Part shown: positions 9,902-43,722 of the stretch, piece after piece
Layout: every line of letters starts with the position of its first letter
Position numbering within the stretch: position 1 is the first letter of the stretch
Assembly: GCA_964016885.1 (NCBI GenBank)
Contig: CAXHJY010001410.1
Location: 29,062-93,061 of the forward strand
Source of the DNA: Eledone cirrhosa
Lineage: Eukaryota
Reading direction: 5' to 3'
Length of the DNA: 64,000 bases
The notes under the pieces: model-generated
Seen by the model: the letters and a program-made list of their open reading frames with translations, nothing else
The model's database searches: none
What the model was told of the DNA's origin: nothing
Translations under genes and position numbers: made by a program

Positions 9902-9936
<35 letters not shown>

Positions 9937-9955
9937 ATTACAATACAAAACTTAC

Positions 9956-10297
9956 CTGCTTAGCACACTGTCGTACACTGTCCAGGTCAATTAGATCTAA
10001 CTGAACAATGCTGACCATTTTGGGATCCACACCTGTAGCGACGAGGATTTCATCAGCTGCACCCCTCGCTTTAGTCAGGTTCCTACAGGCCATTATCACC
10101 CTGGACCCGCGAGACAGAAGGTTCTCGGCCGTTACCTTTCCGATTCCCGACGATGCTCCTGTGATTAAAACAGTCTTACCGTCCATTCTAGCTTGGCCGT
10201 CGTATTTCAGAGGTTTACAATGTAAGGACCAGAATTTCCGTGCAAAGGAAAAACCGATGGCTGCCATGAGCGACAGACCTAAACACAGCAAGAGCAT
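9956..10297 (-). CDS. Retinol dehydrogenase 11-14-like SDR, coding exon 1 (114 aa)
   Basis: ATG at 10297, hydrophobic N-terminal anchor, GKTVLITGASSGIG Rossmann motif, VIMACRN, LDLIDLDSVR. Donor CAG|GTAAG at 9956/9955, phase 0; joins as CAKQ|ILNTEPKLDVLINNAG. Confidence 0.92.
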
Positions 10298-10926
10298 TAT
10301 TATTTCTGTGGTTCAGGTAGAATTTGCGGTAGTTCGTGACCAGGTCACAGAGAGTGCGACGAAAAAATAAGAGAAATTAAGAACTTGCGTGTGTGTGTAT
10401 TTTTACATGAGTGGGTGTATGCATTTTTATATGTAAGTATGCATGTGTGTGTGTGTATGTTTACATGAGTGAGTGTATGTGCTTATGTATATATATTTGT
10501 GTGTGTGTGTTTACATGAGAGAGTGTAATGAAAGTAAGCGTGTTTATGTGTTTGTATATGTAAGTAAGCGTGTGTGTATGTTTATGTATATATTTGTGTG
10601 TATGTTTACATGAGTGAGTGTATCGACCAACGCCTTAATAACAAATAATACGTATTATTCCTAACCAACTGAGCTCCTCACGTTTCAACTGTTTCAATTC
10701 TGATTCATATATCATATATATATATTATATATATATTGTCAAAGACCCCTTCACAGACCGTTGACAAAGTCGAAATAATTAATTGATCTATTAATTGCCC
10801 CACTGGCACGCCATCAAATCCAGTCCGTGGTGTATCACAAAGGTCCGTTTGTGTTGTTAATTAATTCAGGTGTACCGACTCTGCGAGCGGTTTGTTCTAG
10901 TTCTAATACAAACAATAGCAGTATAT

Positions 10927-16074: not shown

Positions 16075-16094
16075 AAATATAATACATAGAAATA

Positions 16095-16278
16095 TAATTG
16101 TTTCTACTTTTGGCACAAGGCCAGCAAATACACCAGTGTATTACTGGTACTTTATTTTATCGACCCCGTAAGGATGAAAGGCAAAGCTAACCTCGGCGGG
16201 ATTTGAACTCAGAATGGCAAGGGCCGTAACTCTATGCGTCAAAGCATGGCGCCCAACCCTCTACCGATACTGCCAATC
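16095..16278 (-). mobile_element. SINE family B
   Basis: Reverse complement of 13670-13850. Confidence 0.8.
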
Positions 16279-16520
16279 AGAAATATAATACCAGTCAAGT
16301 ACTGGGGTCAATTTATTCCTCTATATCTCTTTCCCTCACTATCCTTCTCTGGAAGAAAGCTGCTATATTCAGACCTGGAGAGGAGATGGACTCCACTGAG
16401 TTTTAAAATACCCTAGGAACACTTTATGTCAATATGACACACTCACGACTCTCTTGAGAGTTACGGACCCATCTATACAAATATAATACCAGTCCAGTAC
16501 TGGGGGTCAATTCTTCCTAT

Positions 16521-16616
16521 CTCTTCTAAGTAACAATTCAACTAATCTTGTTATATGGAAGTGAAACATGGACACTTTCATCCAAACAACAAAAGCACCT
16601 TGATGGCACCTACACT
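16521..16616 (+). mobile_element. RTE reverse-transcriptase fragment that seeds the giant satellite
   Basis: Reads LF*VTIQLILLYGSETWTLSSKQQKHLDGTYT; compare QYGSETWTLTKKLTQMVDGCYT at 43525. Confidence 0.8.
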
Positions 16617-19600
16617 ACTGCTACTACTACTACCCCTACTACCTTGATGGCACCTACACTACTGCTACTACTACTACCCCTACTACCTTGATGGCACCTA
16701 CACTACTGCTACTACTACTACCCCTACTACCTTGATGGCACCTACACTACTGCTACTACTACTACCCCTACCACCTTGATGGCACCTACACTACTGCTAC
16801 TACTACTACCCCTACTACCTTGATGGCACCTACACTACTGCTACTACTACTACCCCTACTACCTTGATGGCACCTACACTACTGCTACTACTACTACCCC
16901 TACTACCTTGATGGCACCTACACTACTGCTACTACTACTACCACTACCACCTTGATGGCACCTACACTACTGCTACTACTACTACTACTACTACTACCTT
17001 GATGGCACCTACACTACTGCTACTACTACTACCCCTACTACCTTGATGGCACCTACACTACTGCTACTACTACTACCCCTACCACCTTGATGGCACCTAC
17101 ACTACTGCTACTACTACTACCCCTACTACCTTGATGGCACCTACACTACTGCTACTACTACTACCACTACTACCTTGATGGCACCTACACTACTGCTACT
17201 ACTACTACCCCTACTACCTTGATGGCACCTACACTACTGCTACTACTACTACCACTACTACCTTGATGGCACCTACACTACTGCTACTACTACTACCCCT
17301 ACTACCTTGATGGCACCTACACTACTACTACTACTACCACTACTACCTTGATGGCACCTACACTACTGCTACTACTACTACCCCTACTACCTTGATGGCA
17401 CCTACACTACTGCTACTACTACTACTACCTTGATGGCACCTACACTACTGCTACTACTACTACCACTACCACCTTGATGGCACCTACACTACTGCTACTA
17501 CTACCACTTTGATGGCACCTACACTACTGCTACTACTACTACCACTACCTTGATGGCACCTACACTACTGCTACTACCACTACTACCTTGATGGCACCTA
17601 CACTACTGCTACTACTACTACTACTACTACCTTGATGGCACCTACACTACTGCTACTACTACTACCACTACCACCTTGATGGCACCTACACTACTGCTAC
17701 TACTACTACCACTACCTTGATGGCACCTACACTACTGCTACTACTACTACCACTACCTTGATGGCACCTACACTACTGCTACTGCTACTACTACCTTGAT
17801 GGCACCTACACTACTGCTACTACTACTACCCCTACTACCTTGATGGCACCTACACTACTGCTACTACTACCACTTTGATGGCACCTACACTACTGCTACT
17901 ACTACTACCACTACCTTGATGGCACCTACACTACTGCTACTACTACTACCCCTACTACCTTGATGGCACCTACACTACTGCTACTACTACCACTTTGATG
18001 GCACCTACACTACTGCTACTACTACTACTACTACCACCTTGATGGCACCTACACTACTGCTACTACTACTACTACCACTACCTTGATGGCACCTACACTA
18101 CTGCTACTACTACTACTACTACCACCTTGATGGCACCTACACTACTGCTACTACTACTACCACTACCACCTTGATGGCACCTACACTACTGCTACTACTA
18201 CTACCCCTACTACCTTGATGGCACCTACACTACTACTACTACTACTACCACTACTACCTTGATGGCACCTACACTACTACTACTACTACTACCACTACTA
18301 CCTTGATGGCACCTACACTACTGCTACTACTACCACTTTGATGGCACCTACACTACTGCTACTACTACTACCACTACCTTGATGGCACCTACACTACTGC
18401 TACTACTACTACCACTACTACCTTGATGGCACCTACACTACTGCTACTACTACTACCCCTACTACCTTGATGGCACCTACACTACTACTACTACTACTAC
18501 CACTACTACCTTGATGGCACCTACACTACTGCTACTACTACTACCACTACTACCTTGATGGCACCTACACTACTGCTACTACTACTACCCCTACTACCTT
18601 GATGGCACCTACACTACTGCTACTACTACTACCACTACTACCTTGATGGCACCTACACTACTGCTACTACTACTACCCCTACTACCTTGATGGCACCTAC
18701 ACTACTGCTACTACTACTACCCCTACTACCTTGATGGCACCTACACTACTGCTACTACTACCACTACCACCTTGATGGCACCTACACTACTGCTACTACT
18801 ACTACCCCTACTACCTTGATGGCACCTACACTACTGCTACTACTACCACTACTACCTTGATGGCACCTACACTACTGCTACTACTACTACCCCTACCACC
18901 TTGATGGCACCTACACTACTGCTACTACTACTACCACTACCACCTTGATGGCACCTACACTACTGCTACTACTACCACTACTACCTTGATGGCACCTACA
19001 CTACTGCTACTACTACTACCACTACCTTGATGGCACCTACACTACTGCTACTACTACTACTACCTTGATGGCACCTACACTACTACTACTACCCCTACTA
19101 CCTTGATGGCACCTACACTACTGCTACTACCACTACTACCTTGATGGCACCTACACTACTGCTACTACTACTACTACCTTGATGGCACCTACACTACTAC
19201 TACTACTACTACCACTACCACTTTGATGGCACCTACACTACTGCTACTACTACTACTACCACCTTGATGGCACCTACACTACTGCTACTACTACTACCAC
19301 TACCACCTTGATGGCACCTACACTACTGCTACTACTACCACTTTGATGGCACCTACACTACTGCTACTACTACTACCACTACCTTGATGGCACCTACACT
19401 ACTGCTACTACTACTACCACTACCACCTTGATGGCACCTACACTACTGCTACTACTACTACCACTACCACCTTGATGGCACCTACACTACTGCTACTACT
19501 ACCACTTTGATGGCACCTACACTACTGCTACTACTACTACCCCTACTACCTTGATGGCACCTACACTACTGCTACTACTACTACTACCTTGATGGCACCT

Positions 19601-22600
19601 ACACTACTGCTACTACTACTACCACCTTGATGGCACCTACACTACTACTACTACCACTACCTTGATGGCACCTACACTACTGCTACTACTACTACTACTA
19701 CTACCTTGATGGCACCCTACACTACTGCTACTACTACTACCACCTTGATGGCACCTACACTACTACTACTACCACTACCTTGATGGCACCTACACTACTG
19801 CTACTACTACTACTACTACTACCTTGATGGCACCCTACACTACTGCTACTACTACTACTACCTTGATGGCACCTACACTACTGCTACTACTACTACTACT
19901 ACTACCTTGATGGCACCTACACTACTGCTACTACTACTACTACCTTGATGGCACCCTACACTACTGCTACTACTACTACTACCTTGATGGCACCTACACT
20001 ACTGCTACTACTACTACTACTACTACCTTGATGGCACCCTACACTACTGCTACTACTACTACTACCTTGATGGCACCTACACTACTGCTACTACTACTAC
20101 TACTACTACCTTGATGGCACCTACACTACTGCTACTACTACTACTACCTTGATGGCACCCTACACTACTGCTACTACTACTACTACCTTGATGGCACCTA
20201 CACTACTGCTACTACTACTACTACTACTACCTTGATGGCACCCTACACTACTGCTACTACTACTACTACCTTGATGGCACCTACACTACTACTACTACTA
20301 CTACTACTACCTTGATGGCACCTACACTACTGCTACTACTACTACTACCTTGATGGCACCTACACTACTGCTACTACTACTACTACCTTGATGGCACCTA
20401 CACTACTACTACTACCACTACTACCTTGATGGCACCTACACTACTGCTACTACCACTACTACCTTGATGGCACCTACACTACTGCTACTACTACTACTAC
20501 CTTGATGGCACCTACACTACTGCTACTACTACTACCCGTACTACCTTGATGGCACCTACACTACTGCTACTACTACTACCCCTACTACCTTGATGGCACC
20601 TACACTACTGCTACTACTACTACTACCTTGATGGCACCTACACTACTGCTACTACTACTACCACTACCTTGATGGCACCTACACTACTGCTACTACTACT
20701 ACCACTACCACCTTGATGGCACCTACACTACTGCTACTACTACTACCCCTACTACCTTGATGGCACCTACACTACTGCTACTACTACTACCCCTACTACC
20801 TTGATGGCACCTACACTACTGCTACTACTACCACTACTACCTTGATGGCACCTACACTACTACTACTACTACTACCACTACTACCTTGATGGCACCTACA
20901 CTACTGCTACTACTACTACCACTACTACCTTGATGGCACCTACACTACTACTACTACCACTACTACCTTGATGGCACCTACACTACTGCTACTACTACTA
21001 CCACTACCACCTTGATGGCACCTACACTACTGCTACTACTACCACTACTACCTTGATGGCACCTACACTACTGCTACTACTACTACCCCTACTACCTTGA
21101 TGGCACCTACACTACTGCTACTACTACCACTACTACCTTGATGGCACCTACACTACTGCTACTACTACTACCCCTACTACCTTGATGGCACCTACACTAC
21201 TGCTACTACTACTACTACCTTGATGGCACCTACACTACTGCTACTACTACTACCACTACCACCTTGATGGCACCTACACTACTGCTACTACTACCACTAC
21301 TACCTTGATGGCACCTACACTACTGCTACTACTACTACCCCTACTACCTTGATGGCACCTACACTACTGCTACTACTACTACTACCTTGATGGCACCTAC
21401 ACTACTGCTACTACTACTACCACTACCACCTTGATGACACCTACACTACTGCTACTACTACTACCACTACCACCTTGATGGCACCTACACTACTGCTACT
21501 ACTACTACCACTACCACCTTGATGACACCTACACTACTGCTACTACTACTACCACTACCACCTTGATGGCACCTACACTACTGCTACTACTACTACCACT
21601 ACCACCTTGATGGCACCTACACTACTGCTACTACTACTACCCCTACTACCTTGATGGCACCTACACTACTGCTACTACTACCACTACCACCTTGATGGCA
21701 CCTACACTACTGCTACTACTACTACCCCTACTACCTTGATGGCACCTACACTACTGCTACTACTACTACCCCTACCACCTTGATGGCACCTACACTACTG
21801 CTACTACTACTACCACTACCACCTTGATGACACCTACACTACTGCTACTACTACTACCACTACTACCTTGATGGCACCTACACTACTGCTACTACTACTA
21901 CTACCTTGATGGCACCTACACTACTGCTACTACTACTACCACTACCACCTTGATGGCACCTACACTACTGCTACTACTACTACCACTACTACCTTGATGG
22001 CACCTACACTACTGCTACTACTACTACCACTACTACCTTGATGGCACCTACACTACTGCTACTACTACTACCCCTACCACCTTGATGGCACCTACACTAC
22101 TGCTACTACTACTACCCCTACCACCTTGATGGCACCTACACTACTGCTACTACTACTACCACTACCACCTTGATGGCACCTACACTACTGCTACTACTAC
22201 TACCCCTACTACCTTGATGGCACCTACACTACTACTACTACTACCCCTACCACCTTGATGGCACCTACACTACTACTACTACTACTACCCCTACCACCTT
22301 GATGGCACCTACACTACTGCTACTACTACTACCCCTACTACCTTGATGGCACCTACACTACTGCTACTACTACTACCACTACTACCTTGATGGCACCTAC
22401 ACTACTGCTACTACTACTACCACTACCACCTTGATGGCACCTACACTACTGCTACTACTACTACCACTACTACCTTGATGGCACCTACACTACTGCTACT
22501 ACTACCCCTACTACCTTGATGGCACCTACACTACTGCTACTACTACCCCTACCACCTTGATGGCACCTACACTACTGCTACTACTACCCCTACCACCTTG

Positions 22601-25600
22601 ATGGCACCTACACTACTACTACTACTACTACCACCTTGATGGCACCTACACTACTGCTACTACTACTACCACTACCACCTTGATGGCACCTACACTACTG
22701 CTACTACTACTACCCCTACTACCTTGATGGCACCTACACTACTGCTACTACTACTACCACTACCACCTTGATGACACCTACACTACTGCTACTACTACCA
22801 CTACTACCTTGATGGCACCTACACTACTGCTACTACTACCACTACCACCTTGATGACACCTACACTACTGCTACTACTACCACTACTACCTTGATGGCAC
22901 CTACACTACTGCTACTACTACCACTACCACCTTGATGACACCTACACTACTGCTACTACTACCACTACCACCTTGATGGCACCTACACTACTGCTACTAC
23001 TACTACTACCTTGATGGCACCTACACTACTGCTACTACTACTACTACCTTGATGGCACCTACACTACTGCTACTACCACTACCACCTTGATGGCACCTAC
23101 ACTACTGCTACTACTACTACCACCTTGATGGCACCTACACTACTGCTACTACTACTACTACCTTGATGGCACCTACACTACTGCTACTACTACTACCACT
23201 ACCACCTTGATGGCACCTACACTACTGCTACTACTACTACCACTACTACCTTGATGGCACCTACACTACTGCTACTACTACTACCACTACTACCTTGATG
23301 GCACCTACACTACTGCTACTACTACTACCCCTACCACCTTGATGGCACCTACACTACTGCTACTACTACTACCCCTACCACCTTGATGGCACCTACACTA
23401 CTGCTACTACTACTACCACTACCACCTTGATGGCACCTACACTACTGCTACTACTACTACCACTACCTTGATGGCACCTATACTACTGCTACTACTACTA
23501 CTACCTTGATGGCACCTACACTACTGCTACTACTACTACCCCTACCACCTTGATGGCACCTACACTACTGCTACTACTACTACCACTACCTTGATGGCAC
23601 CTATACTACTGCTACTACTACTACCACTACTACCTTGATGGCACCTACACTACTGCTACTACTACTACCCCTACCACCTTGATGGCACCTACACTACTGC
23701 TACTACTACTACCACTAACTTGATGGCACCTACACTACTGCTACTACTACTACCACTACTACCTTGATGGCACCTACACTACTACTACTACCCCTACTAC
23801 CTTGATGGCACCTACACTACTGCTACTACTACTACCCCTACCACCTTGATGGCACCTACACTACTGCTACTACTACTACCACTAACTTGATGGCACCTAC
23901 ACTACTGCTACTACTACTACCACTACTACCTTGATGGCACCTACACTACTACTACTACCCCTACCACCTTGATGGCACCTACACTACTGCTACTACTACC
24001 ACTACCACCTTGATGGCACCTACACTACTGCTACTACTACTACCACTACCACCTTGATGGCACCTACACTACTGCTACTACTACTACCACTACCACCTTG
24101 ATGGCACCTACACTACTGCTACTACTACCACTACCACCTTGATGGCACCTACACTACTGCTACTACTACTACCACTACCACCTTGATGGCACCTACACTA
24201 CTGCTACTACTACTACCACTACCACCTTGATGGCACCTACACTACTGCTACTACTACCACTACCACCTTGATGGCACCTACACTACTGCTACTACTACTA
24301 CCCCTACTACCTTGATGGCACCTACACTACTGCTACTACTACTACCACTACCACCTTGATGGCACCTACACTACTGCTACTACTACTACCACTACCACCT
24401 TGATGGCACCTACACTACTGCTACTACTACCACTACCACCTTGATGGCACCTACACTACTGCTACTACTACTACCCCTACTACCTTGATGGCACCTATAC
24501 TACTGCTACTACTACTACCACTACTACCTTGATGGCACCTACACTACTGCTACTACTACTACCCCTACTACCTTGATGGCACCTACACTACTGCTACTAC
24601 TACTACCACTACTACCTTGATGGCACCTACACTACTGCTACTACTACCACTACCACCTTGATGGCACCTACACTACTGCTACTACTACTACCACTACCAC
24701 CTTGATGGCACCTACACTACTGCTACTACTACTACCACTACCACCTTGATGGCACCTACACTACTGCTACTACTACTACCACTACCACCTTGATGGCACC
24801 TACACTACTGCTACTACTACTACCACTACCACCTTGATGGCACCTACACTACTGCTACTACTACTACCACTACCACCTTGATGGCACCTACACTACTGCT
24901 ACTACTACTACCCCTACCACCTTGATGGCACCTACACTACTGCTACTACTACCACTACCACCTTGATGGCACCTACACTACTACTACTACTACCACTACC
25001 ACCTTGATGGCACCTACACTACTGCTACTACTACTACCACTACCACCTTGATGGCACCTACACTACTGCTACTACTACTACCACTACCACCTTGATGGCA
25101 CCTACACTACTGCTACTACTACTACCACTACCACCTTGATGGCACCTACACTACTGCTACTACTACCACTACCACCTTGATGGCACCTACACTACTGCTA
25201 CTACTACTACCCCTACTACCTTGATGGCACCTACACTACTGCTACTACTACTACCACTACCACCTTGATGGCATCTACACTACTGCTACTACTACTACTA
25301 CTACTACCTTGATGGCACCTACACTACTGCTACTACTACCACTACCACCTTGATGGCACCTACACTACTGCTACTACTACTACCACTACCACCTTGATGG
25401 CACCTATACTACTGCTACTACTACTACCACTACCACCTTGATGGCACCTATACTACTGCTACTACTACTACCACTACTACCTTGATGGCACCTACACTAC
25501 TGCTACTACTACTACCACTACTACCTTGATGGCACCTACTACTACTACCACTACTACCTTGATGGCACCTACACTACTGCTACTACTACTACCACTACTA

Positions 25601-28398
25601 CCTTGATGGCACCTACACTACTGCTACTACTACTACCACTACCACCTTGATGGCACCTACACTACTGCTACTACTACTACCACTACTACCTTGATGGCAC
25701 CTACTACTACTACCACTACTACCTTGATGGCACCTACACTACTGCTACTACTACTACTACTACTACCTTGATGGCACCTACACTACTGCTACTACTACTA
25801 CCACTACTACCTTGATGGCACCTACTACTACTACCACTACTACCTTGATGGCACCTACACTACTGCTACTACTACTACCACTACTACCTTGATGGCACCT
25901 ACTACTACTACCACTACTACCTTGATGGCACCTACACTACTGCTACTACTACTACTACTACTACCTTGATGGCACCTACACTACTGCTACTACTACTACC
26001 ACTACTACCTTGATGGCACCTACTACTACTACCACTACTACCTTGATGGCACCTACACTACTGCTACTACTACTACCACTACTACCTTGATGGCACCTAC
26101 ACTACTGCTACTACTACTACCACTACTACCTTGATGGCACCTACTACTACTACCACTACTACCTTGATGGCACCTACACTACTGCTACTACTACTACCAC
26201 TACTACCTTGATGGCACCTACACTACTGCTACTACTACTACCCCTACTACCTTGATGGCACCTACACTACTGCTACTACTACCACTACTACCTTGATGGC
26301 ACCTACACTACTGCTACTACTACTACCCCTACTACCTTGATGGCACCTACACTACTGCTACTACTACTACCCCTACTACCTTGATGGCACCTATACTACT
26401 GCTACTACTACTACCACTACCACCTTGATGACACCTACACTACTACTACTACTACTACCACTACCACCTTGATGGCACCTACACTACTGCTACTACTACT
26501 ACCCCTACTACCTCGATGGCACCTACACTACTGCTACTACTACCCCTACTACCTTGATGGCACCTACACTACTGCTACTACTACCCCTACTACCTTGATG
26601 GCACCTACACTACTGCTACTACTACTACCACTACCACCTTGATGGCACCTACACTACTGCTACTACTACTACCCCTACTACCTTGATGGCACCTACACTA
26701 CTGCTACTACTACTACCCCTACTACCTTGATGGCACCTACACTACTGCTACTACTACCACTTTGATGGCACCTACACTACTGCTACTACTACTACCACTA
26801 CCTTGATGGCACCTACACTACTGCTACTACTACTACCCCTACCACCTTGATGGCACCTACACTACTGCTACTACTACTACCCCTACCACCTTGATGGCAC
26901 CTACACTACTGCTACTACTACTACCACTACCACCTTGATGACACCTACACTACTGCTACTACTACTACCACTACTACCTTGATGGCACCTACACTACTGC
27001 TACTACTACCCCTACCACCTTGATGGCACCTACACTACTGCTACTACTACTACTACTACCTTGATGGCACCTACACTACTGCTACTACTACTACTACTAC
27101 CTTGATGGCACCTACACTACTGCTACTACTACTACCCCTACTACCTTGATGGCACCTACACTACTGCTACTACTACTACCACTACCTTGATGGCACCTAC
27201 ACTACTGCTACTACTACTACTACTACCTTGATGGCACCTACACTACTGCTACTACTACTACTACTACCTTGATGGCACCTACACTACTGCTACTACTACT
27301 ACCACTACCTTGATGGCACCTACACTACTGCTACTACTACTACCCCTACCACCTTGATGGCACCTACACTACTGCTACTACTACTACCCCTACCACCTTG
27401 ATGGCACCTACACTACTGCTACTACTACTACCACTACCACCTTGATGACACCTACACTACTGCTACTACTACTACCACTACTACCTTGATGGCACCTACA
27501 CTACTGCTACTACTACCCCTACCACCTTGATGGCACCTACACTACTGCTACTACTACTACTACTACCTTGATGGCACCTACACTACTGCTACTACTACTA
27601 CCCCTACCACCTTGATGGCACCTACACTACTGCTACTACTACTACTACTACCTTGATGGCACCTACACTACTGCTACTACTACTACTACTACCTTGATGG
27701 CACCTACACTACTGCTACTACTACTACCCCTACTACCTTGATGGCACCTACACTACTGCTACTACTACTACCCCTACCACCTTGATGGCACCTACACTAC
27801 TGCTACTACTACTACTACTACCTTGATGGCACCTACACTACTGCTACTACTACTACTACTACCTTGATGGCACCTACACTACTGCTACTACTACTACCCC
27901 TACTACCTTGATGGCACCTACACTACTGCTACTACTACTACCCCTACCACCTTGATGGCACCTACACTACTGCTACTACTACTACTACTACCTTGATGGC
28001 ACCTACACTACTGCTACTACTACTACCCCTACCACCTTGATGGCACCTACACTACTGCTACTACTACTACCACTACCACCTTGATGGCACCTACACTACT
28101 GCTACTACTACTACCCCTACTACCTTGATGGCACCTACACTACTACTACTACTACCACTACCACCTTGATGGCACCTACACTACTGCTACTACTACTACC
28201 CCTACTACCTTGATGGCACCTACACTACTGCTACTACTACTACCACTACCTTGATGGCACCTACACTACTGCCACTACTACTACCACTACCACCTTGATG
28301 GCACCTACACTACTGCTACTACTACTACCACTACCACCTTGATGGCACCTACACTACTGCTACTACTACTACTACTACTACTACCTTGATGGCACCTA

Positions 28399-28449
<51 letters not shown>

Positions 28450-28619
28450 CTTGATGGCACCTACACTACTGCTACTACTACTACCACTACCACCTTGATG
28501 GCACCTACACTACTGCTACTACTACTACTACTACTACTACCACTACTACCTTGATGGCACCTACACTACTGCTACTACTACTACTACTACTACTACCACT
28601 ACCACCTTGATGGCACCTA

Positions 28620-28655
<36 letters not shown>

Positions 28656-31600
28656 CACTACTACCTTGATGGCACCTACACTACTGCTACTACTACCACT
28701 ACCACCTTGATGGCACCTACACTACTGCTACTACTACTACTACCTTGATGGCACCTACACTACTACTACTACTACTACCACTACCACCTTCATGGCACCT
28801 ACACTACTGCTACTACTACTACCACTACCACCTTGATGGCACCTACACTACTACCACTACTACTACCACTACCACCTTCATGGCACCTACACTACTGCTA
28901 CTACTACTACCACTACCACCTTGATGGCACCTACACTACTGCTACTACCACTACTACCTTGATGGCACCTACACTACTGCTACTACCACTACTACCTTGA
29001 TGGCACCTACACTACTACTACTACCCCTACTACCTTGATGGCACCTACACTACTGCTACTACTACTACCACTACCACCTTGATGGCACCTACACTACTGC
29101 TACTACTACTACCACTACTACCTTGATGGCACCTACACTACTGCTACTACTACTACCCCTACTACCTTGATGGCACCTACACTACTGCTACTACCACTAC
29201 TACCTTGATGGCACCTACACTACTGCTACTACCACTACTACCTTGATGGCACCTACACTACTACTACTACCCCTACTACCTTGATGGCACCTACACTACT
29301 GCTACTACTACTACCACTACTACCTTGATGGCACCTACACTACTGCTACTACCACTACTACCTTGATGGCACCTACACTACTACTACTACCCCTACTACC
29401 TTGATGGCACCTACACTACTGCTACTACTACTACCACTACTACCTTGATGGCACCTACACTACTACTACTACCCCTACTACCTTGATGGCACCTACACTA
29501 CTGCTACTACTACTACCACTACCACCTTGATGACACCTACACTACTGCTACTACTACTACCACTACCACTTTGATGGCACCTACACTACTGCTACTACTA
29601 CTACCACTACCACCTTGATGGCACCTACACTACTGCTACTACTACTACCCCTACTACCTTGATGGCACCTACACTACTGCTACTACTACTACCTTGATGG
29701 CACCTACACTACTACTACTACTACTACCCCTACTACCTTGATGGCACCTACACTACTGCTACTACTACTACCACTACTACCTTGATGGCACCTACACTAC
29801 TGCTACTACTACTACCACTACCACCTTGATGGCACCTACACTACTGCTACTACTACTACCACTACCACCTTGATGGCACCTACACTACTGCTACTACTAC
29901 CACTACCACCTTGATGGCACCTACACTACTGCTACTACTACTACCACTACCACCTTGATGGCACCTACACTACTGCTACTACTACTACCCCTACCACCTT
30001 GATGGCACCTACACTACTGCTACTACTACTACCACTACCACCTTGATGGCACCTACACTACTGCTACTACTACCACTACCACCTTGATGGCACCTACACT
30101 ACTGCTACTACTACTACCACTACCACCTTGATGGCACCTACACTACTGCTACTACTACTACCCCTACTACCTTGATGGCACCTACACTACTGCTACTACC
30201 ACTACCACTACCACCTTGATGGCACCTACACTACTGCTACTACTACTACCCCTACCACCTTGATGGCACCTACACTACTGCTACTACTACCACTACCACC
30301 TTGATGGCACCTACACTACTGCTACTACCACTACCACTACTACCTTGATGGCACCTACACTACTGCTACTACTACTACTACCTTGATGGCACCTACACTA
30401 CTGCTACTACTACCACCACCACCTTGATGGCACCTACACTACTGCTACTACTACTACCCCTACCACCTTGATGGCACCTACACTACTGCTACTACTACTA
30501 CCACTACCACCTTGATGGCACCTACACTACTGCTACTACTACTACCACTACCACCTTGATGGCACCTACACTACTGCTACTACTACTACTACCTTGATGG
30601 CACCTACACTACTGCTACTACTACTACCACTACTACCTTGATGGCACCTACACTACTGCTACTACTACTACCACTACTACCTTGATGGCACCTACACTAC
30701 TGCTACTACTACTACCACTACCACCTTGATGGCACCTACACTACTGCTACTACTACTACCACTACCACCTTGATGGCACCTACACTACTGCTACTACTAC
30801 TACCACTACCACCTTGATGGCACCTACACTACTGCTACTACTACCACTACCACCTTGATGGCACCTACACTACTGCTACTACTACTACTACTACCTTGAT
30901 GGCACCTACACTACTGCTACTACTACTACCACTACCACCTTGATGGCACCTACACTACTGCTACTACTACTACCACTACCACCTTGATGGCACCTACACT
31001 ACTGCTACTACTACCACTACCACCTTGATGGCACCTACACTACTGCTACTACTACTACCACTACCACCTTGATGGCACCTACACTACTACTACTACTACC
31101 ACTACCACCTTGATGGCACCTACACTACTACTACTACTACCACTACCACCTTGATGGCACCTACACTACTACTACTACTACCACTACCACCTTGATGGCA
31201 CCTACACTACTGCTACTACTACTACTACTACCTTGATGGCACCTACACTACTGCTACTACTACTACCACTACCACCTTGATGGCACCTACACTACTGCTA
31301 CTACTACCACTACCACCTTGATGGCACCTACACTACTGCTACTACTACTACTACTACCTTGATGGCACCTACACTACTGCTACTACTACTACCACTACCA
31401 CCTTGATGGCACCTACACTACTGCTACTACTACTACCACTACCACCTTGATGGCACCTACACTACTGCTACTACTACCACTACCACCTTGATGGCACCTA
31501 CACTACTGCTACTACTACCACTACCACCTTGATGGCACCTACACTACTACTACTACTACCACTACCACCTTGATGGCACCTACACTACTACTACTACTAC

Positions 31601-34600
31601 CACTACCACCTTGATGGCACCTACACTACTACTACTACTACCACTACCACCTTGATGGCACCTACACTACTGCTACTACTACTACTACTACCTTGATGGC
31701 ACCTACACTACTACTACTACTACTACCACTACCACCTTGATGGCACCTACACTACTACTACTACTACCACTACCACCTTGATGGCACCTACACTACTGCT
31801 ACTACTACTACTACTACCTTGATGGCACCTACACTACTGCTACTACTACTACCCCTACTACCTTGATGGCACCTACACTACTGCTACTACTACTACCCCT
31901 ACTACCTTGATGGCACCTACACTACTACCACTACTACCTTGATGGCACCTACACTACTACTACTACTACTACCACTACAACCTTGATGACACTTACACTA
32001 CTACTACTACTACTACCCCTACTACCTTGATGGCACCTACACTACTGCTACTACTACTACCCCTACTACCTTGATGGCACCTACACTACTGCTACTACTA
32101 CTACCCCTACTACCTTGATGGCACCTACACTACTACCACTACTACCTTGATGGCACCCTACACTACTACTACTACTACTACCACTACAACCTTGATGACA
32201 CTTACACTACTACTACTACTACTACCCCTACTACCTTGATGGCACCTACACTACTGCTACTACTACTACCCCTACCACCTTGATGGCACCTACACTACTG
32301 CTACTACTACTACCCCTACCACCTTGATGGCACCTACACTACTACTACTACTACTACCACTACCACCTTGATGGCACCTACACTACTGCTACTACTACTA
32401 CCCCTACCACCTTGATGGCACCTACACTACTGCTACTACTACCACTACTACCTTGATGGCACCTACACTACTGCTACTACTACTACCACTACTACCTTGA
32501 TGGCACCTACACTACTGCTACTACTACTACCCCTACTACCTTGATGGCACCTACACTACTGCTACTACTACTACCCCTACTACCTTGATGGCACCTACAC
32601 TACTGCTACTACTACTACCCCTACCACCTTGATGGCACCTACACTACTGCTACTACTACCACTACCACCTTGATGGCACCTACACTACTGCTACTACTAC
32701 TACCACTACCACCTTGATGGCACCTACACTACTGCTACTACTACTACCCCTACCACCTTGATGGCACCTACACTACTGCTACTACTACCACTACCACCTT
32801 GATGGCACCTACACTACTGCTACTACTACCACTACCACCTTGATGGCACCTACACTACTGCTACTACTACTACCCCTACCACCTTGATGGCACCTACACT
32901 ACTGCTACTACTACTACTACCTTGATGGCACCTACACTACTGCTACTACTACTACCCCTACTACCTTGATGGCACCTACACTACTGCTACTACTACTACC
33001 ACTACTACCTTGATGGCACCTACACTACTGCTACTACTACTACCACTACTACCTTGATGGCACCTACACTACTGCTACTACTACTACCCCTACCACCTTG
33101 ATGGCACCTACACTACTGCTACTACTACTACCCCTACTACCTTGATGGCACCTACACTACTACTACTACCACTACCACCTTGATGGCACCTACACTACTG
33201 CTACTACTACTACCCCTACTACCTTGATGGCACCTACACTACTGCTACTACCACTACTACCTTGATGGCACCTACACTACTGCTACTACTACTACCCCTA
33301 CCACCTTGATGGCACCTACACTACTGCTACTACTACTACCACTACTACCTTGATGGCACCTACACTACTGCTACTACTACTACTACCTTGATGGCACCTA
33401 CACTACTGCTACTACTACTACTACCTTGATGGCACCTACACTACTGCTACTACTACTACCACTACTACCTTGATGGCACCTACACTACTGCTACTACTAC
33501 TACCCCTACTACCTTGATGGCACCTACACTACTGCTACTACTACTACCCCTACCACCTTGATGGCACCTACACTACTGCTACTACTACTACCACTACTAC
33601 CTTGATGGCACCTACACTACTGCTACTACTACTACCCCTACTACCTTGATGGCACCTACACTACTGCTACTACTACTACCCCTACTACCTTGATGGCACC
33701 TACACTACTGCTACTACTACTACCCCTACCACCTTGATGGCACCTACACTACTGCTACTACTACTACCACTACTACCTTGATGGCACCTACACTACTGCT
33801 ACTACTACTACCCCTACTACCTTGATGGCACCTACACTACTGCTACTACTACTACCCCTACCACCTTGATGGCACCTACACTACTGCTACTACTACTACC
33901 ACCTTGATGGCACCTACACTATTGCTACTGCTACTACCACTACCACCTTGATGGCACCTACACTACTGCTACTACTACCCCTACTACCTTGATGGCACCT
34001 ACACTACTGCTACTACTACTACCCCTACTACCTTGATGGCACCTACACTACTGCTACTACTACTACCCCTACCACCTTGATGGCACCTACACTACTACTA
34101 CTACTACCACTACCACCTTGATGACACCTACACTACTACTACTACTACTACCCCTACTACCTTGATGGCACCTATACTACTGCTACTACTACTACCACTA
34201 CTACCTTGATGGCACCTATACTACTGCTACTACTACTACCACTACTACCTTGATGGCACCTACACTACTGCTACTACTACCCCTACCACCTTGATGGCAC
34301 CTACACTACTGCTACTACTACTACCCCTACTACCTTGATGGCACCTACACTACTACCACTACTACTACCCCTACCACCTTGATGGCACCTACACTACTGC
34401 TACTACTACTACCCCTACTACCTTGATGGCACCTACACTACTGCTACTACTACTACCCCTACTACCTTGATGGCACCTACACTACTGCTACTACTACTAC
34501 CACTACCACCTTGATGACACCTATACTACTGCTACTACTACTACCCCTACTACCTTGATGGCACCTACACTACTGCTACTACTACTACCCCTACTACCTT

Positions 34601-37600
34601 GATGGCACCTACACTACTGCTACTACTACTACCACTACCACCTTGATGACACCTATACTACTGCTACTACTACTACCCCTACTACCTTGATGGCACCTAC
34701 ACTACTGCTACTACTACTACTACCTTGATGGCACCTACACTACTGCTACTACCCCTACTACCTTGATGGCACCTACACTACTACCACTACTACTACCCCT
34801 ACCACCTTGATGGCACCTACACTACTGCTACTACTACTACCACCTTGATGGCACCTACACTACTGCTACTACTACTACCCCTACTACCTTGATGGCACCT
34901 ACACTACTACTACTACTACTACCCCTACTACCTTGATGGCACCTACACTACTGCTACTACTACTACCACTACTACCTTGATGGCACCTACACTACTGCTA
35001 CTACTACTACCCCTACCACCTTGATGGCACCTACACTACTGCTACTACTACTACCCCTACTACCTTGATGGCACCTACACTACTGCTACTACTACTACCC
35101 CTACTACCTTGATGGCACCTACACTACTGCTACTACCCCTACTACCTTGATGGCACCTACACTACTGCTACTACCCCTACTACCTTGATGGCACCTACAC
35201 TACTACTACTACCCCTACTACCTTGATGGCACCTACACTACTGCTACTACTACTACCCCTACTACCTTGATGGCACCTACACTACTGCTACTACTACTAC
35301 CCCTACTACCTTGATGGCACCTACACTACTGCTACTACTACTACCCCTACTACCTTGATGGCACCTACACTACTGCTACTACTACTACCACTACCACCTT
35401 GATGGCACCTACACTACTGCTACTACTACTACCCCTACTACCTTGATGGCACCTACACTACTGCTACTACTACTACCCCTACTACCTTGATGGCACCTAC
35501 ACTACTGCTACTACTACTACCCCTACTACCTTGATGGCACCTACACTACTGCTACTACTACTACCACTACCACCTTGATGGCACCTACACTACTGCTACT
35601 ACTACTACCCCTACTACCTTGATGGCACCTACACTACTGCTACTACTACTACCCCTACTACCTTGATGGCACCTACACTACTGCTACTACTACTACCCCT
35701 ACTACCTTGATGGCACCTACACTACTGCTACTACTACTACCACTACCACCTTGATGGCACCTACACTACTGCTACTACTACTACCACTACCACCTTGATG
35801 GCACCTACACTACTGCTACTACTACCCCTACCACCTTGATGGCACCTACACTACTGCTACTACTACTACCCCTACTACCTTGATGGCACCTACACTACTG
35901 CTACTACTACCCCTACCACCTTGATGGCACCTACACTACTGCTACTACTACTACCCCTACTACCTTGATGGCACCTACACTACTGCTACTACTACTACCA
36001 CTACCACCTTGATGGCACCTACACTACTGCTACTACTACTACCACTACCACCTTGATGGCACCTACACTACTGCTACTACTACCCCTACCACCTTGATGG
36101 CACCTACACTACTGCTACTACTACTACCCCTACTACCTTGATGGCACCTACACTACTGCTACTACTACCCCTACCACCTTGATGGCACCTACACTACTGC
36201 TACTACTACTACCCCTACTACCTTGATGGCACCTACACTACTGCTACTACTACTACCACTACCACCTTGATGGCACCTACACTACTGCTACTACTACTAC
36301 CACTACCACCTTGATGGCACCTACACTACTGCTACTACTACCCCTACCACCTTGATGGCACCTACACTACTGCTACTACTACTACCCCTACTACCTTGAT
36401 GGCACCTACACTACTGCTACTACTACCCCTACCACCTTGATGGCACCTACACTACTGCTACTACTACTACCCCTACCACCTTGATGGCACCTACACTACT
36501 GCTACTACTACTACCCCTACTACCTTGATGGCACCTACACTACTGCTACTACTACTACCCCTACCACCTTGATGACACCTATACTACTGCTACTACTACT
36601 ACCCCTACTACCTTGATGGCACCTACACTACTGCTACTACTACTACCACTACCACCTTGATGGCACCTACACTACTGCTACTACTACTACCCCTACTACC
36701 TTGATGGCACCTACACTACTGCTACTACTACTACCACTACCACCTTGATGGCACCTACACTACTGCTACTACTACTACCCCTACTACCTTGATGGCACCT
36801 ACACTACTACTACTACTACTACTACTACTACCTTGATGGCACCTACACTACTGCTACTACTACTACCCCTACTACCTTGATGGCACCTACACTACTGCTA
36901 CTACTACTACCCCTACTACCTTGATGGCACCTACACTACTGCTACTACTACTACCCCTACTACCTTGATGGCACCTACACTACTGCTACTACTACTACCC
37001 CTACTACCTTGATGGCACCTACACTACTGCTACTACTACTACCCCTACTACCTTGATGGCACCTACACTACTGCTACTACTACTACCCCTACTACCTTGA
37101 TGGCACCTACACTACTGCTACTACTACTACCCCTACTACCTTGATGGCACCTACACTACTGCTACTACTACTACCCCTACTACCTTGATGACACCTACAC
37201 TACTACTACTACCACTACTACCTTGATGGCACCTACACTACTGCTACTACTACTACCACTACTACCTTGATGGCACCTACACTACTGCTACTACTACTAC
37301 CACTACCACCTTGATGGCACCTACACTACTGCTACTACTACTACCCCTACTACCTTGATGGCACCTACACTACTGCTACTACTACTACCCCTACTACCTT
37401 GATGGCACCTACACTACTGCTACTACTACTACCCCTACTACCTTGATGGCACCTACACTACTGCTACTACTACTACCCCTACTACCTTGATGGCACCTAC
37501 ACTACTACTACTACTACTACCCCTACTACCTTGATGGCACCTATACTACTGCTACTACTACTACCACTACCACCTTGATGGCACCTACACTACTGCTACT

Positions 37601-40600
37601 ACTACTACCCCTACTACCTTGATGGCACCTACACTACTACTACTACTACTACCCCTACTACCTTGATGGCACCTACACTACTGCTACTACTACTACCCCT
37701 ACTACCTTGATGGCACCTACACTACTACTACTACTACTACCCCTACTACCTTGATGGCACCTATACTACTGCTACTACTACTACCACTACTACCTTGATG
37801 GCACCTACACTACTGCTACTACTACTACCCCTACTACCTTGATGGCACCTACACTACTGCTACTACTACTACCCCTACTACCTTGATGGCACCTACACTA
37901 CTACTACTACTACTACCCCTACTACCTTGATGGCACCTATACTACTGCTACTACTACTACCACTACCACCTTGATGGCACCTACACTACTGCTACTACTA
38001 CTACCCCTACTACCTTGATGGCACCTACACTACTACTACTACTACTACCCCTACTACCTTGATGGCACCTACACTACTGCTACTACTACTACCCCTACTA
38101 CCTTGATGGCACCTACACTACTACTACTACTACTACCCCTACTACCTTGATGGCACCTATACTACTGCTACTACTACTACCACTACTACCTTGATGGCAC
38201 CTACACTACTGCTACTACTACTACCCCTACTACCTTGATGGCACCTACACTACTGCTACTACTACTACCCCTACTACCTTGATGGCACCTACACTACTAC
38301 TACTACTACTACCCCTACTACCTTGATGGCACCTATACTACTGCTACTACTACTACCACTACCACCTTGATGGCACCTACACTACTGCTACTACTACTAC
38401 CCCTACTACCTTGATGGCACCTACACTACTACTACTACTACTACCCCTACTACCTTGATGGCACCTACACTACTGCTACTACTACTACCCCTACTACCTT
38501 GATGGCACCTACACTACTGCTACTACTACTACCCCTACTACCTTGATGGCACCTACACTACTGCTACTACTACTACCACTACCACCTTGATGACACCTAC
38601 ACTACTGCTACTACTACTACCACTACTACCTTGATGGCACCTACACTACTGCTACTACTACCCCTACTACCTTGATGGCACCTACACTACTGCTACTACT
38701 ACTACCCCTACTACCTTGATGGCACCTACACTACTGCTACTACTACTACCCCTACCACCTTGATGGCACCTACACTACTGCTACTACTACTACCCCTACT
38801 ACCTTGATGGCACCTACACTACTGCTACTACTACTACCCCTACTACCTTGATGGCACCTACACTACTGCTACTACTACTACCACTACTACCTTGATGGCA
38901 CCTACACTACTGCTACTACTACCACTACTACCTTGATGGCACCTACACTACTGCTACTACTACTACCACTACCACCTTGATGGCACCTACACTACTGCTA
39001 CTACTACTACCTTGATGGCACCTACACTACTACTACTACCACTACTACCTTGATGGCACCTACACTACTACTACTACTACTACCACTACTACCTTGATGG
39101 CACCTACACTACTGCTACTACTACTACCACTACTACCTTGATGGCACCTACACTACTACTACTACTACTACCACTACCACCTTGATGGCACCTACACTAC
39201 TGCTACTACTACCACTACTACCTTGATGGCACCTACACTACTGCTACTACTACTACCACTACCACCTTGATGGCACCTACACTACTGCTACTACTACTAC
39301 CTTGATGGCACCTACACTACTGCTACTACTACTACCTTGATGGCACCTACACTACTGCTACTACTACTACCCCTACTACCTTGATGGCACCTACACTACT
39401 GCTACTACTACTACCTTGATGGCACCTACACTACTGCTACTACTACTACCACTACTACCTTGATGGCACCTACACTACTGCTACTACTACTACCACTACC
39501 ACCTTGATGGCACCTACACTACTGCTACTACTACTACCTTGATGGCACCTACACTACTGCTACTACTACTACCCCTACTACCTTGATGGCACCTACACTA
39601 CTGCTACTACTACTACCCCTACTACCTTGATGGCACCTACACTACTGCTACTACTACTACCACTACCACCTTGATGGCACCTACACTACTGCTACTACTA
39701 CTACCTTGATGGCACCTACACTACTGCTACTACTACTACCCCTACTACCTTGATGGCACCTACACTACTGCTACTACTACTACCACTACCACCTTGATGG
39801 CACCTACACTACTGCTACTACTACTACCTTGATGGCACCTACACTACTGCTACTACTACTACCACTACCACCTTGATGGCACCTACACTACTGCTACTAC
39901 TACTACTACCTTGATGGCACCTACACTACTGCTACTACTACTACTACCTTGATGGCACCTACACTACTGCTACTACTACTACCCCTACTACCTTGATGGC
40001 ACCTACACTACTGCTACTACTACTACCCCTACCACCTTGATGGCACCTACACTACTGCTACTACTACTACCCCTACCACCTTGATGGCACCTACACTACT
40101 GCTACTACTACTACCCCTACTACCTTGATGGCACCTACACTACTGCTACTACTACTACCCCTACTACCTTGATGGCACCTACACAACTGCTACTACTACT
40201 ACCCCTACCACCTTGATGGCACCTACACTACTGCTACTACTACTACCCCTACTACCTTGATGGCACCTACACTACTGCTACTACTACTACCACCTTGATG
40301 GCACCTACACTACTACCACTACCACCTTGATGGCACCTACACTACTGCTACTACTACTACCCCTACTACCTTGATGGCACCTACACTACTGCTACTACTA
40401 CTACCCCTACTACCTTGATGGCACCTACACTACTGCTACTACTACTACCACTACTACCTTGATGGCACCTACACTACTGCTACTACCACTACCACCTTGA
40501 TGGCACCTACACTACTGCTACTACTACTACCCCTACTACCTTGATGGCACCTACACTACTGCTACTACTACTACTACCTTGATGGCACCTACACTACTGC

Positions 40601-42180
40601 TACTACTACTACCCCTACTACCTTGATGGCACCTACACTACTGCTACTACTACTACTACTACTACCTTGATGGCACCTACACTACTGCTACTACTACTAC
40701 CACTACCACCTTGATGGCACATACACTACTGCTACTACTACTACCCCTACTACCTTGATGGCACCTACACTACTGCTACTACTACTACTACCTTGATGGC
40801 ACCTACACTACTGCTACTACTACTACCCCTACTACCTTGATGGCACCTACACTACTGCTACTACTACTACTACCTTGATGGCACATACACTACTGCTACT
40901 ACTACTACCCCTACTACCTTGATGGCACCTACACTACTACTACTACTACTACTACCTTGATGGCACCTACACTACTGCTACTACTACTACTACTACTACC
41001 TTGATGGCACCTACACTACTGCTACTACTACTACCCCTACTACCTTGATGGCACCTACACTACTGCTACTACTACTACCACTACTACCTTGATGGCACCT
41101 ACACTACTGCTACTACTACTACTACTACTACCTTGATGGCACCTACACTACTGCTACTACTACTACCCCTACTACCTTGATGGCACCTACACTACTGCTA
41201 CTACTACTACCCCTACTACCTTGATGGCACCTACACTACTGCTACTACTACTACTACCTTGATGGCACATACACTACTGCTACTACTACTACCCCTACTA
41301 CCTTGATGGCACCTACACTACTACTACTACTACTACCACCTTGATGGCACCTACACTACTGCTACTACTACTACCACTACCACCTTGATGGCACATACAC
41401 TACTGCTACTACTACTACCCCTACTACCTTGATGGCACCTACACTACTGCTACTACTACTACTACCTTGATGGCACCTACACTACTGCTACTACTACTAC
41501 CCCTACTACCTTGATGGCACCTACACTACTGCTACTACTACTACTACCTTGATGGCACATACACTACTGCTACTACTACTACCCCTACTACCTTGATGGC
41601 ACCTACACTACTACTACTACTACTACTACCTTGATGGCACCTACACTACTGCTACTACTACTACCTCTACTACCTTGATGGCACCTACACTACTGCTACT
41701 ACTACTACCACTACCACCTTGATGGCACCTACACTACTACTACTACCACTACCACCTTGATGGCACCTACACTACTGCTACTACTACTACCTCTACTACC
41801 TTGATGGCACCTACACTACTGCTACTACTACTACCACTACCACCTTGATGGCACCTACACTACTACTACTACCACCACCACCTTGATGGCACCTACACTA
41901 CTACTACTACTACTACCACCTTGATGGCACCTACACTACTACTACTACTACTACTACCTTGATGGCACCTACACTACTGCTACTACTACTACCTCTACTA
42001 CCTTGATGGCACCTACACTACTGCTACTACTACTACCTCTACTACCTTGATGGCACCTACACTACTGCTACTACTACTACCACTACCACCTTGATGGCAC
42101 CTACACTACTGCTACTACTACTACCACTACCACCTTGATGGCACCTACACTACCACCACTACCACCTTGATGGCAACTAC
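16598..42180. repeat. ~25.6-kb satellite, ~43-bp unit, roughly 600 copies
   Basis: Unit CCTTGATGGCACCTACACTACTGCTACTACTACTAC(C/T)(C/A)CTAC(T/C)A; length varies mostly in 3-nt steps. Confidence 0.98.
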
Positions 42181-42184
42181 AGCC

Positions 42185-42865
42185 AGTGTGAACTGGGAGG
42201 TTTTTACCGTGTTACCTACACGGCCACATTACAGCGTGGACTGTGTGTTTTTTTATCGTGACACCTACACGACCTCATTTATTTCGAGCTGGATGTTGTG
42301 GTACCAACATAACTTTACATTGAAAGGGGGTGGTGTGGATGGGGTGGGGATAGTGGGACGGGGTGTATTTTGTTAGAGGTGCCTACTGACTGTAGGTTTC
42401 GCCCTGTCTTCTGTATTACTGTGTAGCGCCAAAGATCTCGGTCCAGTGACATTGTCTTGGAGAGGTGTAAGTGTGTGAGGTCGGAATTTATCAAGTCGTC
42501 CCAGGTTTTTCTGGGTCTGCCTACTCCGTGGCTACCGTCTGTTTTTATTGCCCTGCACTTTTTTATACAGCTGTCATCTATCATGCGCATCACGTGACCA
42601 TACCAACGTAGTCTTCTCTCGAGTAAACAACATCTGATCCCTCTTATTCCTAATTTCTCCCTTAGTTCGTTTATGCTTTGCCGTTCACGTATATTACTAT
42701 TACACATCCAGCGGAGCATGCAAGATTCGTTCCTCTCCAGTCTGCGTATATCCTCTGCACACAATGCCCAGGTCTCACTGCCATGCAACATTGCTGTTCG
42801 ATTGCAGGCATCATACAGCCTGCCTTTCATTTTTAGGGAGAACCCTTTAGCGGCTATAATTATGT
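42185..42865 (-). mobile_element. RTE LINE 3' fragment (RT C-terminus plus UTR)
   Basis: KGRLYDAC..AMLHGSETW..MLRWMC..RRLRWYGHVMRM..GRPRKTWDDLINSDL; paralogous to 15720-16074. Confidence 0.88.
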
Positions 42866-43317: not shown

Positions 43318-43722
43318 ACTCTGGATGTCGGTGAGCATGTCCAGCTAACCTCAGTCTCCTCTGTGTCACTTTTGAGCTGACTTTTGGGATGCTCCTATAC
43401 AGCTCTGAGTTTTTCATCCTCAGTGTATACTGATTAATGTTCAGAGCCATCCTCAGCATTCTCGTGTAGCACCCATCCACCATCTGAGTGAGTTTTTTGG
43501 TCAGTGTCCAAGTCTCAGACCCATATTGCATTCAGTGCTCCTTTGGGAGCCCCTACATGGACACACTAGAAGAGGAAGACCAAGGTTAACGTATGTTGAT
43601 GCCCTAAGGACAGACACTGGTCTGTTGGAGACGCAGGACATGGCAGCGATAATGAGGGACAGAGACTGTTGGAGAGAACTCGTCCATGGATCTCGGGAAT
43701 TTTACCCGCCTTAGAATAGAAT
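43318..43722 (+). mobile_element. 5'-inverted RTE insertion
   Basis: 43318-43525 minus encodes YGSETW..DGCYTRMLR..RLRLAGHAHRHPE; 43526-43714 plus continues SVLLWEPLHG..RGRPRLTYVD..WR, then TAGAA tail. Confidence 0.8.

What the first reader, a model, noticed from the sequence alone, without database searches (positions are those of the whole stretch)
16521..42180. 25.6-kb satellite seeded in-frame from an RTE reverse-transcriptase motif fused to (CTA)n
The unique left flank reads LLYGSETWTLSSKQQKH, and the first satellite unit continues CTT GAT GGC ACC TAC ACT = LDGTYT. This matches the RTE motif seen at 43525 as YGSETWTLTKKLTQMVDGCYT. The invariant ~19-nt part of each of ~600 units is therefore LINE coding DNA, and the variable part is a CTA microsatellite. 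The birth site of a large satellite appears preserved at its edge, ~6 kb upstream of the RDH gene and ~9 kb downstream of the ZNF gene.
Basis: partly seen in the sequence, partly recalled or inferred. Interest (0 to 1): 0.75.

Follow-up and report, generated by a model that had tools for sequence, protein, structure and literature searches.

The report
Retrotransposon seed grown into giant satellite
A 25.6-kb block of about 600 short repeats sits inside a broken jumping gene and likely grew in place from a small repeat seed; the same seed sits in about 70 other copies of that jumping gene, enriched near the ends of the large chromosome-scale scaffolds, so it was likely copied between them rather than born here.

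Summary
The array is real (16598-42181, about 603 units, mostly 44 bp). Its fixed 19 bp is ORF2 DNA of a dispersed LINE family, and the 96-bp left flank matches that family at up to 97%. It is not a unique birth site. The same junction (19-bp duplication plus a CTA run) lies in about 70 other copies of the LINE, from one extra unit to a 19-kb array. The commonest unit is private to this locus, so the growth was local. The frame is irrelevant and the motif at 43525 is another family. Seeded copies are enriched near ends of large scaffolds (9 of 15 distal, 0 of 67 interior). They lie on both host haplotypes, are no more alike than intact copies, and neighbours with different insertion sites share unit variants. 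Best reading: one old seed spread by non-allelic gene conversion, then expanded locally (0.55). A retrotransposed seeded subfamily is not excluded (AU test p = 0.38). Closest known: subtelomeric SINE-derived satellites of reptiles. This scan noted LINE-attached satellites elsewhere in this genome before.

The parts
16521..16616 (+). 96-bp fragment of LINE ORF2 (family A), downstream of the RT core, ending with the first 19-bp seed copy at 16598-16616
   Evidence: Up to 97% identical to dispersed copies, 617 candidates; 93 of 96 bases match intact copy L021; a public contig covers 16489-16572 without a difference
16598..42181 (+). Compound minisatellite array: 603 units of 19 bp LINE DNA plus an interrupted CTA run, modal length 44 bp, 81 unit types, short local higher-order repeats, no long ORF
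   Evidence: longest stop-free stretch 85 codons in six frames; commonest unit has 129 exact matches in the genome, the 100 listed all in this array
42184..42856 (-). Copy of a second, high-copy LINE family (B) facing family A tail to tail, lacking its last ~140 bp and tail; joined to the array where the 3' part of family A should resume
   Evidence: 88-95% matches from query base 35 on, 8484 candidates; nine other copies show the missing end; the 3' part of family A has no hit in the contig
43322..43531 (-). Fragment of a third LINE family with a similar peptide motif; not the source of the unit
   Evidence: Translation; patchy DNA alignment to the flank, against a near-perfect one for family A
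16094..16520 (.). High-copy short interspersed repeat pieces left of the LINE fragment; about 6 bases of microhomology at the join
   Evidence: Very high contig depth over 16094-16280; join compared
5186..10312 (-). RDH-like short-chain dehydrogenase gene (two coding stretches seen, 9938-10312 and 5186-5869); neighbour only
   Evidence: the first stretch is single copy in the assembly
50829..53171 (-). C2H2 zinc-finger ORF; neighbour only

Best explanation
The array is a tandem repeat of a seed made of 19 bp of LINE ORF2 DNA plus a CTA run; the seed sits at the same base in about 70 copies of one LINE family, likely arose once, likely spread between non-allelic copies by gene conversion in recombination-rich distal regions, and likely expanded here in place to 25.6 kb. 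Shown: the LINE origin of the 19 bp, the identical junctions at many loci, the range of array sizes, the distal enrichment, the sharing of unit variants among neighbouring loci with different flanks, and the private dominant unit here. Inferred: single origin (no bare duplication and no bare CTA expansion found), conversion as the vehicle, growth by slippage of the CTA run plus unequal exchange between units, and a later deletion that removed the facing 3' ends of LINE A and LINE B at the right edge. No function is indicated; it is most likely neutral or selfish DNA.
For: Anatomy LINE 5' part, (19 bp + CTA run) repeated, 19 bp, LINE 3' part at other loci. 44 left and 50 right junctions against 242 intact matches; 72 placed array loci after merging. 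No intermediates: 0 matches each. No host column separates 69 seeded from 58 intact copies; within the main haplotype, pairs on different chromosomes differ by 10.2% (seeded-seeded), 10.2% (seeded-intact), 10.1% (intact-intact). Seed on both linked host haplotypes, 50 GG and 10 AA of 70. State-blind list on C1-C7: 9 of 15 informative copies within 20 Mb of an end are seeded, 0 of 67 interior, p = 1.7e-8; with the C6 group counted once 4 of 10, p = 1.6e-4. One unit variant in 7 of 7 arrays on distal C6, on both haplotypes and with unrelated flanks, against 1 of 62 elsewhere. Mosaic neighbours: L005/L006 99.5% upstream, 88% downstream; L016/L064 98% over the LINE only. A second fixed-junction duplication (about 107 bp) assorts independently of seed and haplotype and is also absent from 49 intact copies on C1-C4. 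A pair of related C25 loci holds 3 and 477 units.
Against: The AU test does not reject one seeded clade (p = 0.378, 30 of 46 seeded and 30 of 80 intact rows); the tree is star-like, so host phylogeny says little. First and last units of 24 simple arrays differ at 39 of 384 positions, as much as unrelated copies, which fits seeds as old as the insertions. Shared variants among neighbours show exchange between arrays but not that a seed ever entered an intact copy. Intact copies do exist distally (6 of 15) and a few arrays lie 22-46 Mb from an end. Some clusters are plain segmental duplicates. No recombination map, no second individual, and scaffold ends are taken as chromosome ends. The window's contig is unplaced, so its own position is unknown.
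Confidence: 0.55

Rival explanations
1. A source LINE copy (or a few recombinant ones) acquired the seed and was retrotransposed, probably in trans since the seed breaks the frame; seeded copies were inserted or kept mainly in distal regions and small chromosomes, and neighbouring arrays later exchanged units.
For: Identical junctions with many different 5' ends and flanks; monophyly not rejected; 24 label changes on the tree against 37 for shuffles; first and last units as diverged as old copies; one unit variant in 25 of 69 arrays on 11 chromosomes, while 4 of the 105 exact intact matches carry it; the 3' end and TGA tail are kept.
Against: No host signature of a subfamily; seed on two haplotypes; intact copies of both haplotypes fill the interiors of C1-C4, seeded ones do not; the 107-bp duplication shows the same regional limit independently.
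Confidence: 0.3
2. The seed forms anew at each locus at a break or slippage hot spot, so this locus is one true birth site among many.
For: Other rearrangements recur at this site: the same 23-bp deletion at two loci and a CTA-free 33-bp repeat at a third; host haplotypes are mixed.
Against: No microhomology explains the CTA run; no intermediates; first and last units are not alike as a fresh duplication would be; the window's units share derived variants with C25 arrays; no unusual fold at the site.
Confidence: 0.1
3. The 25.6-kb length is inflated or misjoined by assembly.
For: Unplaced 93-kb contig; the LINE's 3' part is missing at the right edge; no spanning reads seen.
Against: 81 unit types with the longest exact unit-string repeat only 16 units; a 19-kb sister array with both LINE flanks on C25; left join and seed seen in public contigs, possibly of the same sample.
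Confidence: 0.05

Closest known systems
SINE-derived satellites (sSat) of squamate reptiles, PMC10702118 (abstract and sections 5, 18, 19 read)
   Same: Tandem units from part of a retroposon, flanked by the rest of the element; many loci with one unit structure; from a few to about 1000 units; subtelomeric preference; some units carry extra bases of unknown origin.
   Different: Here the source is LINE ORF2, the element part is only 19 bp, and it is fused to a microsatellite that varies inside each unit. The sections read do not test how one unit structure reached many loci; here host haplotypes and neighbour sharing point to conversion.
Non-allelic gene conversion among ISX elements of Drosophila miranda, PMC4384637 (abstract only)
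   Same: A derived variant shared across separate insertions of one element.
   Different: There point changes under selection, shown polymorphic in a population; here a repeat-seeding insertion, one assembly, no sign of selection.
Satellites from LINE ORF2 or from TE-internal repeats (chicken HinfI from CR1, PROsat from L1, PisTR-A from Ogre, CgHINE), reviewed in PMC9659126 (section 2 and passages read)
   Same: TE sequence, coding parts included, as substrate; short arrays dispersed as an intermediate stage.
   Different: In several of those the element itself carries and disperses the repeats; here most family copies are intact and the seed is regionally limited.
Microsatellite families made by RTE elements in Lepidoptera, PMC2887409 (search listing only)
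   Same: LINE copies linked to microsatellites at many loci.
   Different: Recalled to concern repeats at the 3' end; here the family's tail is TGA and the CTA run is internal.

Membership tests
RTE-clade LINE (source of the 19 bp) | Non-LTR reverse transcriptase in the same frame | tested here: met
   Real copies L147 and L060 give RVT_1 at E 8.9e-4 and 0.019, both below Pfam's cut-off, plus weak DUF6451; Atlas neighbours are RVT_1 clusters at 0.95; no PDB match
RTE-clade LINE (source of the 19 bp) | Short tandem-repeat 3' tail and 5'-truncated copies | tested here: met
   TGA repeats right after the ORF end; median 5' extent about 200 bp above the site in 89 copies
RTE-clade LINE (source of the 19 bp) | AP endonuclease domain and single long ORF | not tested
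   Copies held share at most about 1.1 kb above the site; no full-length copy was sought
RTE-clade LINE (source of the 19 bp) | Placement in the RTE clade on an RT tree | not tested
   No named reference elements on hand; the label RTE rests on recalled motifs
Retroposon-derived satellite (sSat type) | Unit homologous to part of a dispersed element | tested here: met
Retroposon-derived satellite (sSat type) | Rest of the element at one or both array ends | tested here: met
   Left end only in the window; both ends at most other loci
Retroposon-derived satellite (sSat type) | Many loci with one unit structure, subtelomeric preference | tested here: met
   72 placed loci; 9 of 15 distal against 0 of 67 interior; ends are scaffold ends and 'distal' means within 20 Mb
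Retroposon-derived satellite (sSat type) | Heterochromatic state | not testable with these tools
   Needs chromatin data
Variant spread by non-allelic gene conversion (ISX type) | Derived state shared by separate insertions on different host backgrounds | tested here: met
Variant spread by non-allelic gene conversion (ISX type) | Carriers do not form one clade of the element | tested here: inconclusive
   24 changes on the free tree but AU p = 0.378
Variant spread by non-allelic gene conversion (ISX type) | State polymorphic between individuals at one insertion | not testable with these tools
   One assembly; public contigs too short
Site-specific tailed retroposon inserted with a target-site duplication | Element body next to the repeat tail | tested here: not met
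   No shared foreign sequence before the CTA run in the 30 of 32 loci read or the 30; no recurring CTA-tailed family in 0.94 Mb held
Centromeric satellite | CENP-A binding, megabase arrays | not testable with these tools
   Size and position between two genes argue against it (inference)

The most novel reading that the evidence does not exclude
A satellite seed behaves as a second-order parasite: a frame-breaking 19-bp duplication plus CTA run that invades resident copies of a dead LINE by ectopic conversion wherever recombination is high, converting most distal copies and then launching arrays of up to 25 kb, so that the dispersed LINE family is a genome-wide reporter of where satellites can be born.
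Probability: 0.3. Interest if true: 0.7.

Novelty: new variant of a known kind. Interest (0 to 1): 0.42.

Why it matters
That satellites arise from transposon pieces is known. Less clear is how one unit structure reaches many loci and why only some grow. This family gives a graded series in one genome: intact copies, seeds with one extra unit, arrays of 3 to 60 units, and two arrays of 19 and 25.6 kb, with a pair of related loci holding 3 and 477 units. Because every seed marks the same base of a known host, transposition and conversion make different, testable predictions in population long reads. Nothing here shows a function.

Tried and rejected
A 12-bp microhomology between the unit and the 49-bp repeat of LINE family B as cause of the right junction: rejected, the join lies elsewhere with about 5 shared bases. 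The CTA run as the family's own tail: rejected, the tail is TGA. CTA run derived from the LINE's next codons: rejected, intact copies go on differently. Tail-only insertion of another retroposon: no body and no donor family found. The window as a second haplotype of a placed locus: no support, the RDH-like stretch is single copy and no flank match to C25 stretches was seen in the part that was shown. My first estimate that no intact copy lies distally (0 of 45) was partly ascertainment; the state-blind list found 6. An in-frame seed form at 6-7 loci as the ancestor: not resolved. Hairpins at the site or in the unit: none. Pfam on the three window LINE pieces: no match. No RNA holder listed. 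Runs X7 and X8 laid nothing. High depth over the unit in runs of other organisms was set aside as probable plain microsatellite. A loose-end hint of the seed in organism B has low agreement (0.61) and is not counted. Paper searches listed no report of this family or of a conversion-spread LINE-internal seed; subscription papers and supplements were not seen. PMC6007223 (abstract) and PMC13282606 (passages, section 8) did not bear on the seed.

Full report
Observation. The window is G000:C1437:29062-93061, the end of an unplaced 93-kb contig in a 3.0-Gb animal genome; it looks octopus-like from recalled repeat features and from earlier notes of the scan. TRF reports one array of period 44 and 602.5 copies. 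My parse gives 603 units of 32-65 bp in 81 types between 16598 and 42181. 549 of 603 units start with the same 17 bases; the rest of the unit is an interrupted CTA run. Units are nearly all 2 mod 3 long, the flank's frame stops in the third unit, and no frame is open for more than 85 codons.

Source of the unit. Bases 16521-16616 match a dispersed family at up to 97% (617 candidates, 40 scored). Intact copies read the same 19 bp and continue in frame for about 330 bp to a TGA-repeat tail. Stop-free frames of real copies run from an RT-like region through the flank's peptide and give weak RVT_1 and DUF6451 matches and RT clusters in the Atlas. The peptide lies below the RT core. The label RTE is recalled, not tree-tested. 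The motif at 43525 belongs to another family and aligns only patchily at DNA level.

Not a unique birth site. Patterns with up to one mismatch find 44 left junctions (LINE, 19 bp, CTA; the window is one, and one on C21 proved not to be an array), 50 right junctions (CTA, 19 bp, LINE resumes) and 242 intact copies. Merged by hand, 72 array loci are placed on chromosome-scale scaffolds. They run from one extra unit through tens of units to a 19,069-bp, 477-unit array on C25 with both LINE flanks. A related C25 locus with the same inverted 5' piece and 94.7% identity downstream has 3 units. A bare duplication without CTA and a CTA expansion without duplication each gave 0 matches. No foreign element body precedes the CTA run.

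This array. Its commonest unit has 129 exact matches in the genome, the 100 listed all inside this array, which itself holds 128-130 by my parses: the growth was local. A variant in 84% of its units occurs in 8 of 13 C25 arrays and 1 of 56 others, so the seed came from, or exchanged with, the C25 lineage. The right edge does not return to the LINE: it joins a second LINE family on the minus strand that lacks its last 140 bp or so and its tail, and the first family's 3' part is absent from the contig. I infer one deletion of two facing 3' ends. A public contig, possibly of the same sample, covers the left join without a difference, and four contigs show the seed junction. The length was not checked with reads.

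How the seed reached many loci. I compared 70 seeded and 107 intact copies over 447 host columns with the array cut out; intact copies were drawn from pattern lists, so the sample is not random. No column separates the classes (best 42 of 62 against 15 of 53 in the first set of 69 and 58). A tree of 55 and 55 rows needs 24 changes against a mean of 37 for shuffles, but an AU test on 30 and 30 rows does not reject one seeded clade (p = 0.378). Within the main haplotype, seeded copies on different chromosomes are no closer to each other (10.2%) than to intact ones (10.2%; intact pairs 10.1%). The seed lies on both linked haplotypes (50 GG, 10 AA on 6 chromosomes); AA is nearly the only form in a run of another organism and so probably older.

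Position. A list blind to seed state (93 places on C1-C7) gave, within 20 Mb of an end, 9 seeded, 6 unseeded and 6 truncated copies; in the interior 0 seeded of 67 informative, 5 truncated (42 read, 30 judged from earlier loci, motif spacing, or single hits). Fisher p is 1.7e-8, or 1.6e-4 with the six C6 arrays counted once. A second duplication of about 107 bp in the same LINE has one junction at 37 of 38 flagged loci, occurs with and without the seed and on both haplotypes, and is in 12 of 58 intact copies off C1-C4 and 0 of 49 on them.

Local exchange. All 7 arrays on distal C6 share a unit variant seen in 1 of 62 others, though 3 hosts are AA and 4 GG, the six 3' flanks read are unrelated, and most hosts differ by 7-10%. 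L016 and L064 are 98% alike over the LINE only; L005 and L006 are 99.5% alike above the array and 88% below. Some close pairs are plain segmental duplicates. Against conversion as the vehicle: first and last units of 24 simple arrays differ at 39 of 384 positions, which fits old seeds present since insertion as well as chimeras.

Mechanism. Most likely one old event put a CTA run between two copies of 19 bp of ORF2; the seed moved among copies by non-allelic conversion where recombination is high; CTA slippage and unequal exchange then lengthened some arrays, here to 25.6 kb (0.55). A retrotransposed seeded subfamily with regional retention is the main rival (0.30); repeated new origin (0.10) and assembly error (0.05) are less likely. 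No function is indicated.

Comparison. It works like the SINE-derived satellites of squamates (PMC10702118, abstract and sections 5, 18, 19): element-flanked arrays, many loci, subtelomeric preference. LINE ORF2 as a satellite source is listed in a review (PMC9659126, section 2 and passages). Spread of a variant among insertions by conversion is described for ISX (PMC4384637, abstract). The differences are the compound 19 bp plus microsatellite unit and the evidence that seed and host are unlinked. Eight paper searches listed no report of this case; subscription papers and supplements were not seen. Earlier notes of this scan describe other LINE-attached satellites in this genome, none with this sequence. 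Verdict: new variant of a known kind, interest 0.42.

Noticed in passing
L006, L022, L081, L160 and 33 more loci: A second tandem duplication of about 107 bp in the same LINE, with one junction at 37 loci and up to 8 or more units, independent of the CTA seed and absent from 49 intact copies on C1-C4.
   Followed up: partly
L074, L158, L079, L197, L010, L160, L161: A seed form whose last unit is shortened so that the insert can stay in frame (a poly-Thr stretch), on four chromosomes.
   Followed up: partly
L171-L173 (G000:C25, about 4.255-4.275 Mb) and L081: A 19-kb, 477-unit sister array with both LINE flanks, and a related locus 1 Mb away with 3 units and the same last CTA run.
   Followed up: yes
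L255, L269, L257, L270, L268: Small deletions over the seed site in unseeded copies, the same 23-bp one on two chromosomes, and a CTA-free 33-bp tandem repeat over the site.
   Followed up: no
window 6168-6991, 15263-15771, 60299-62039, 62950-63895: 48/49-bp arrays resembling the repeat in the 3' part of LINE family B; further 61-, 65-, 78- and 116-bp arrays in the window, of which the 61-, 65- and 116-bp ones recur in other stretches fetched.
   Followed up: no
L067, L279: Copies of the LINE with CTA runs at their 3' end and 5' side and an inverted piece; insertion into a CTA microsatellite is one possible route to the first seed.
   Followed up: no
window 43993-44640, minus strand: A 215-codon stop-free frame that looks like a reverse-transcriptase remnant of another kind (recalled resemblance to Penelope-like elements).
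   Followed up: no
window 50829-53171, minus strand: Single-exon-like C2H2 zinc-finger frame of 780 codons with long Gln, His, Asn and Ser runs.
   Followed up: no
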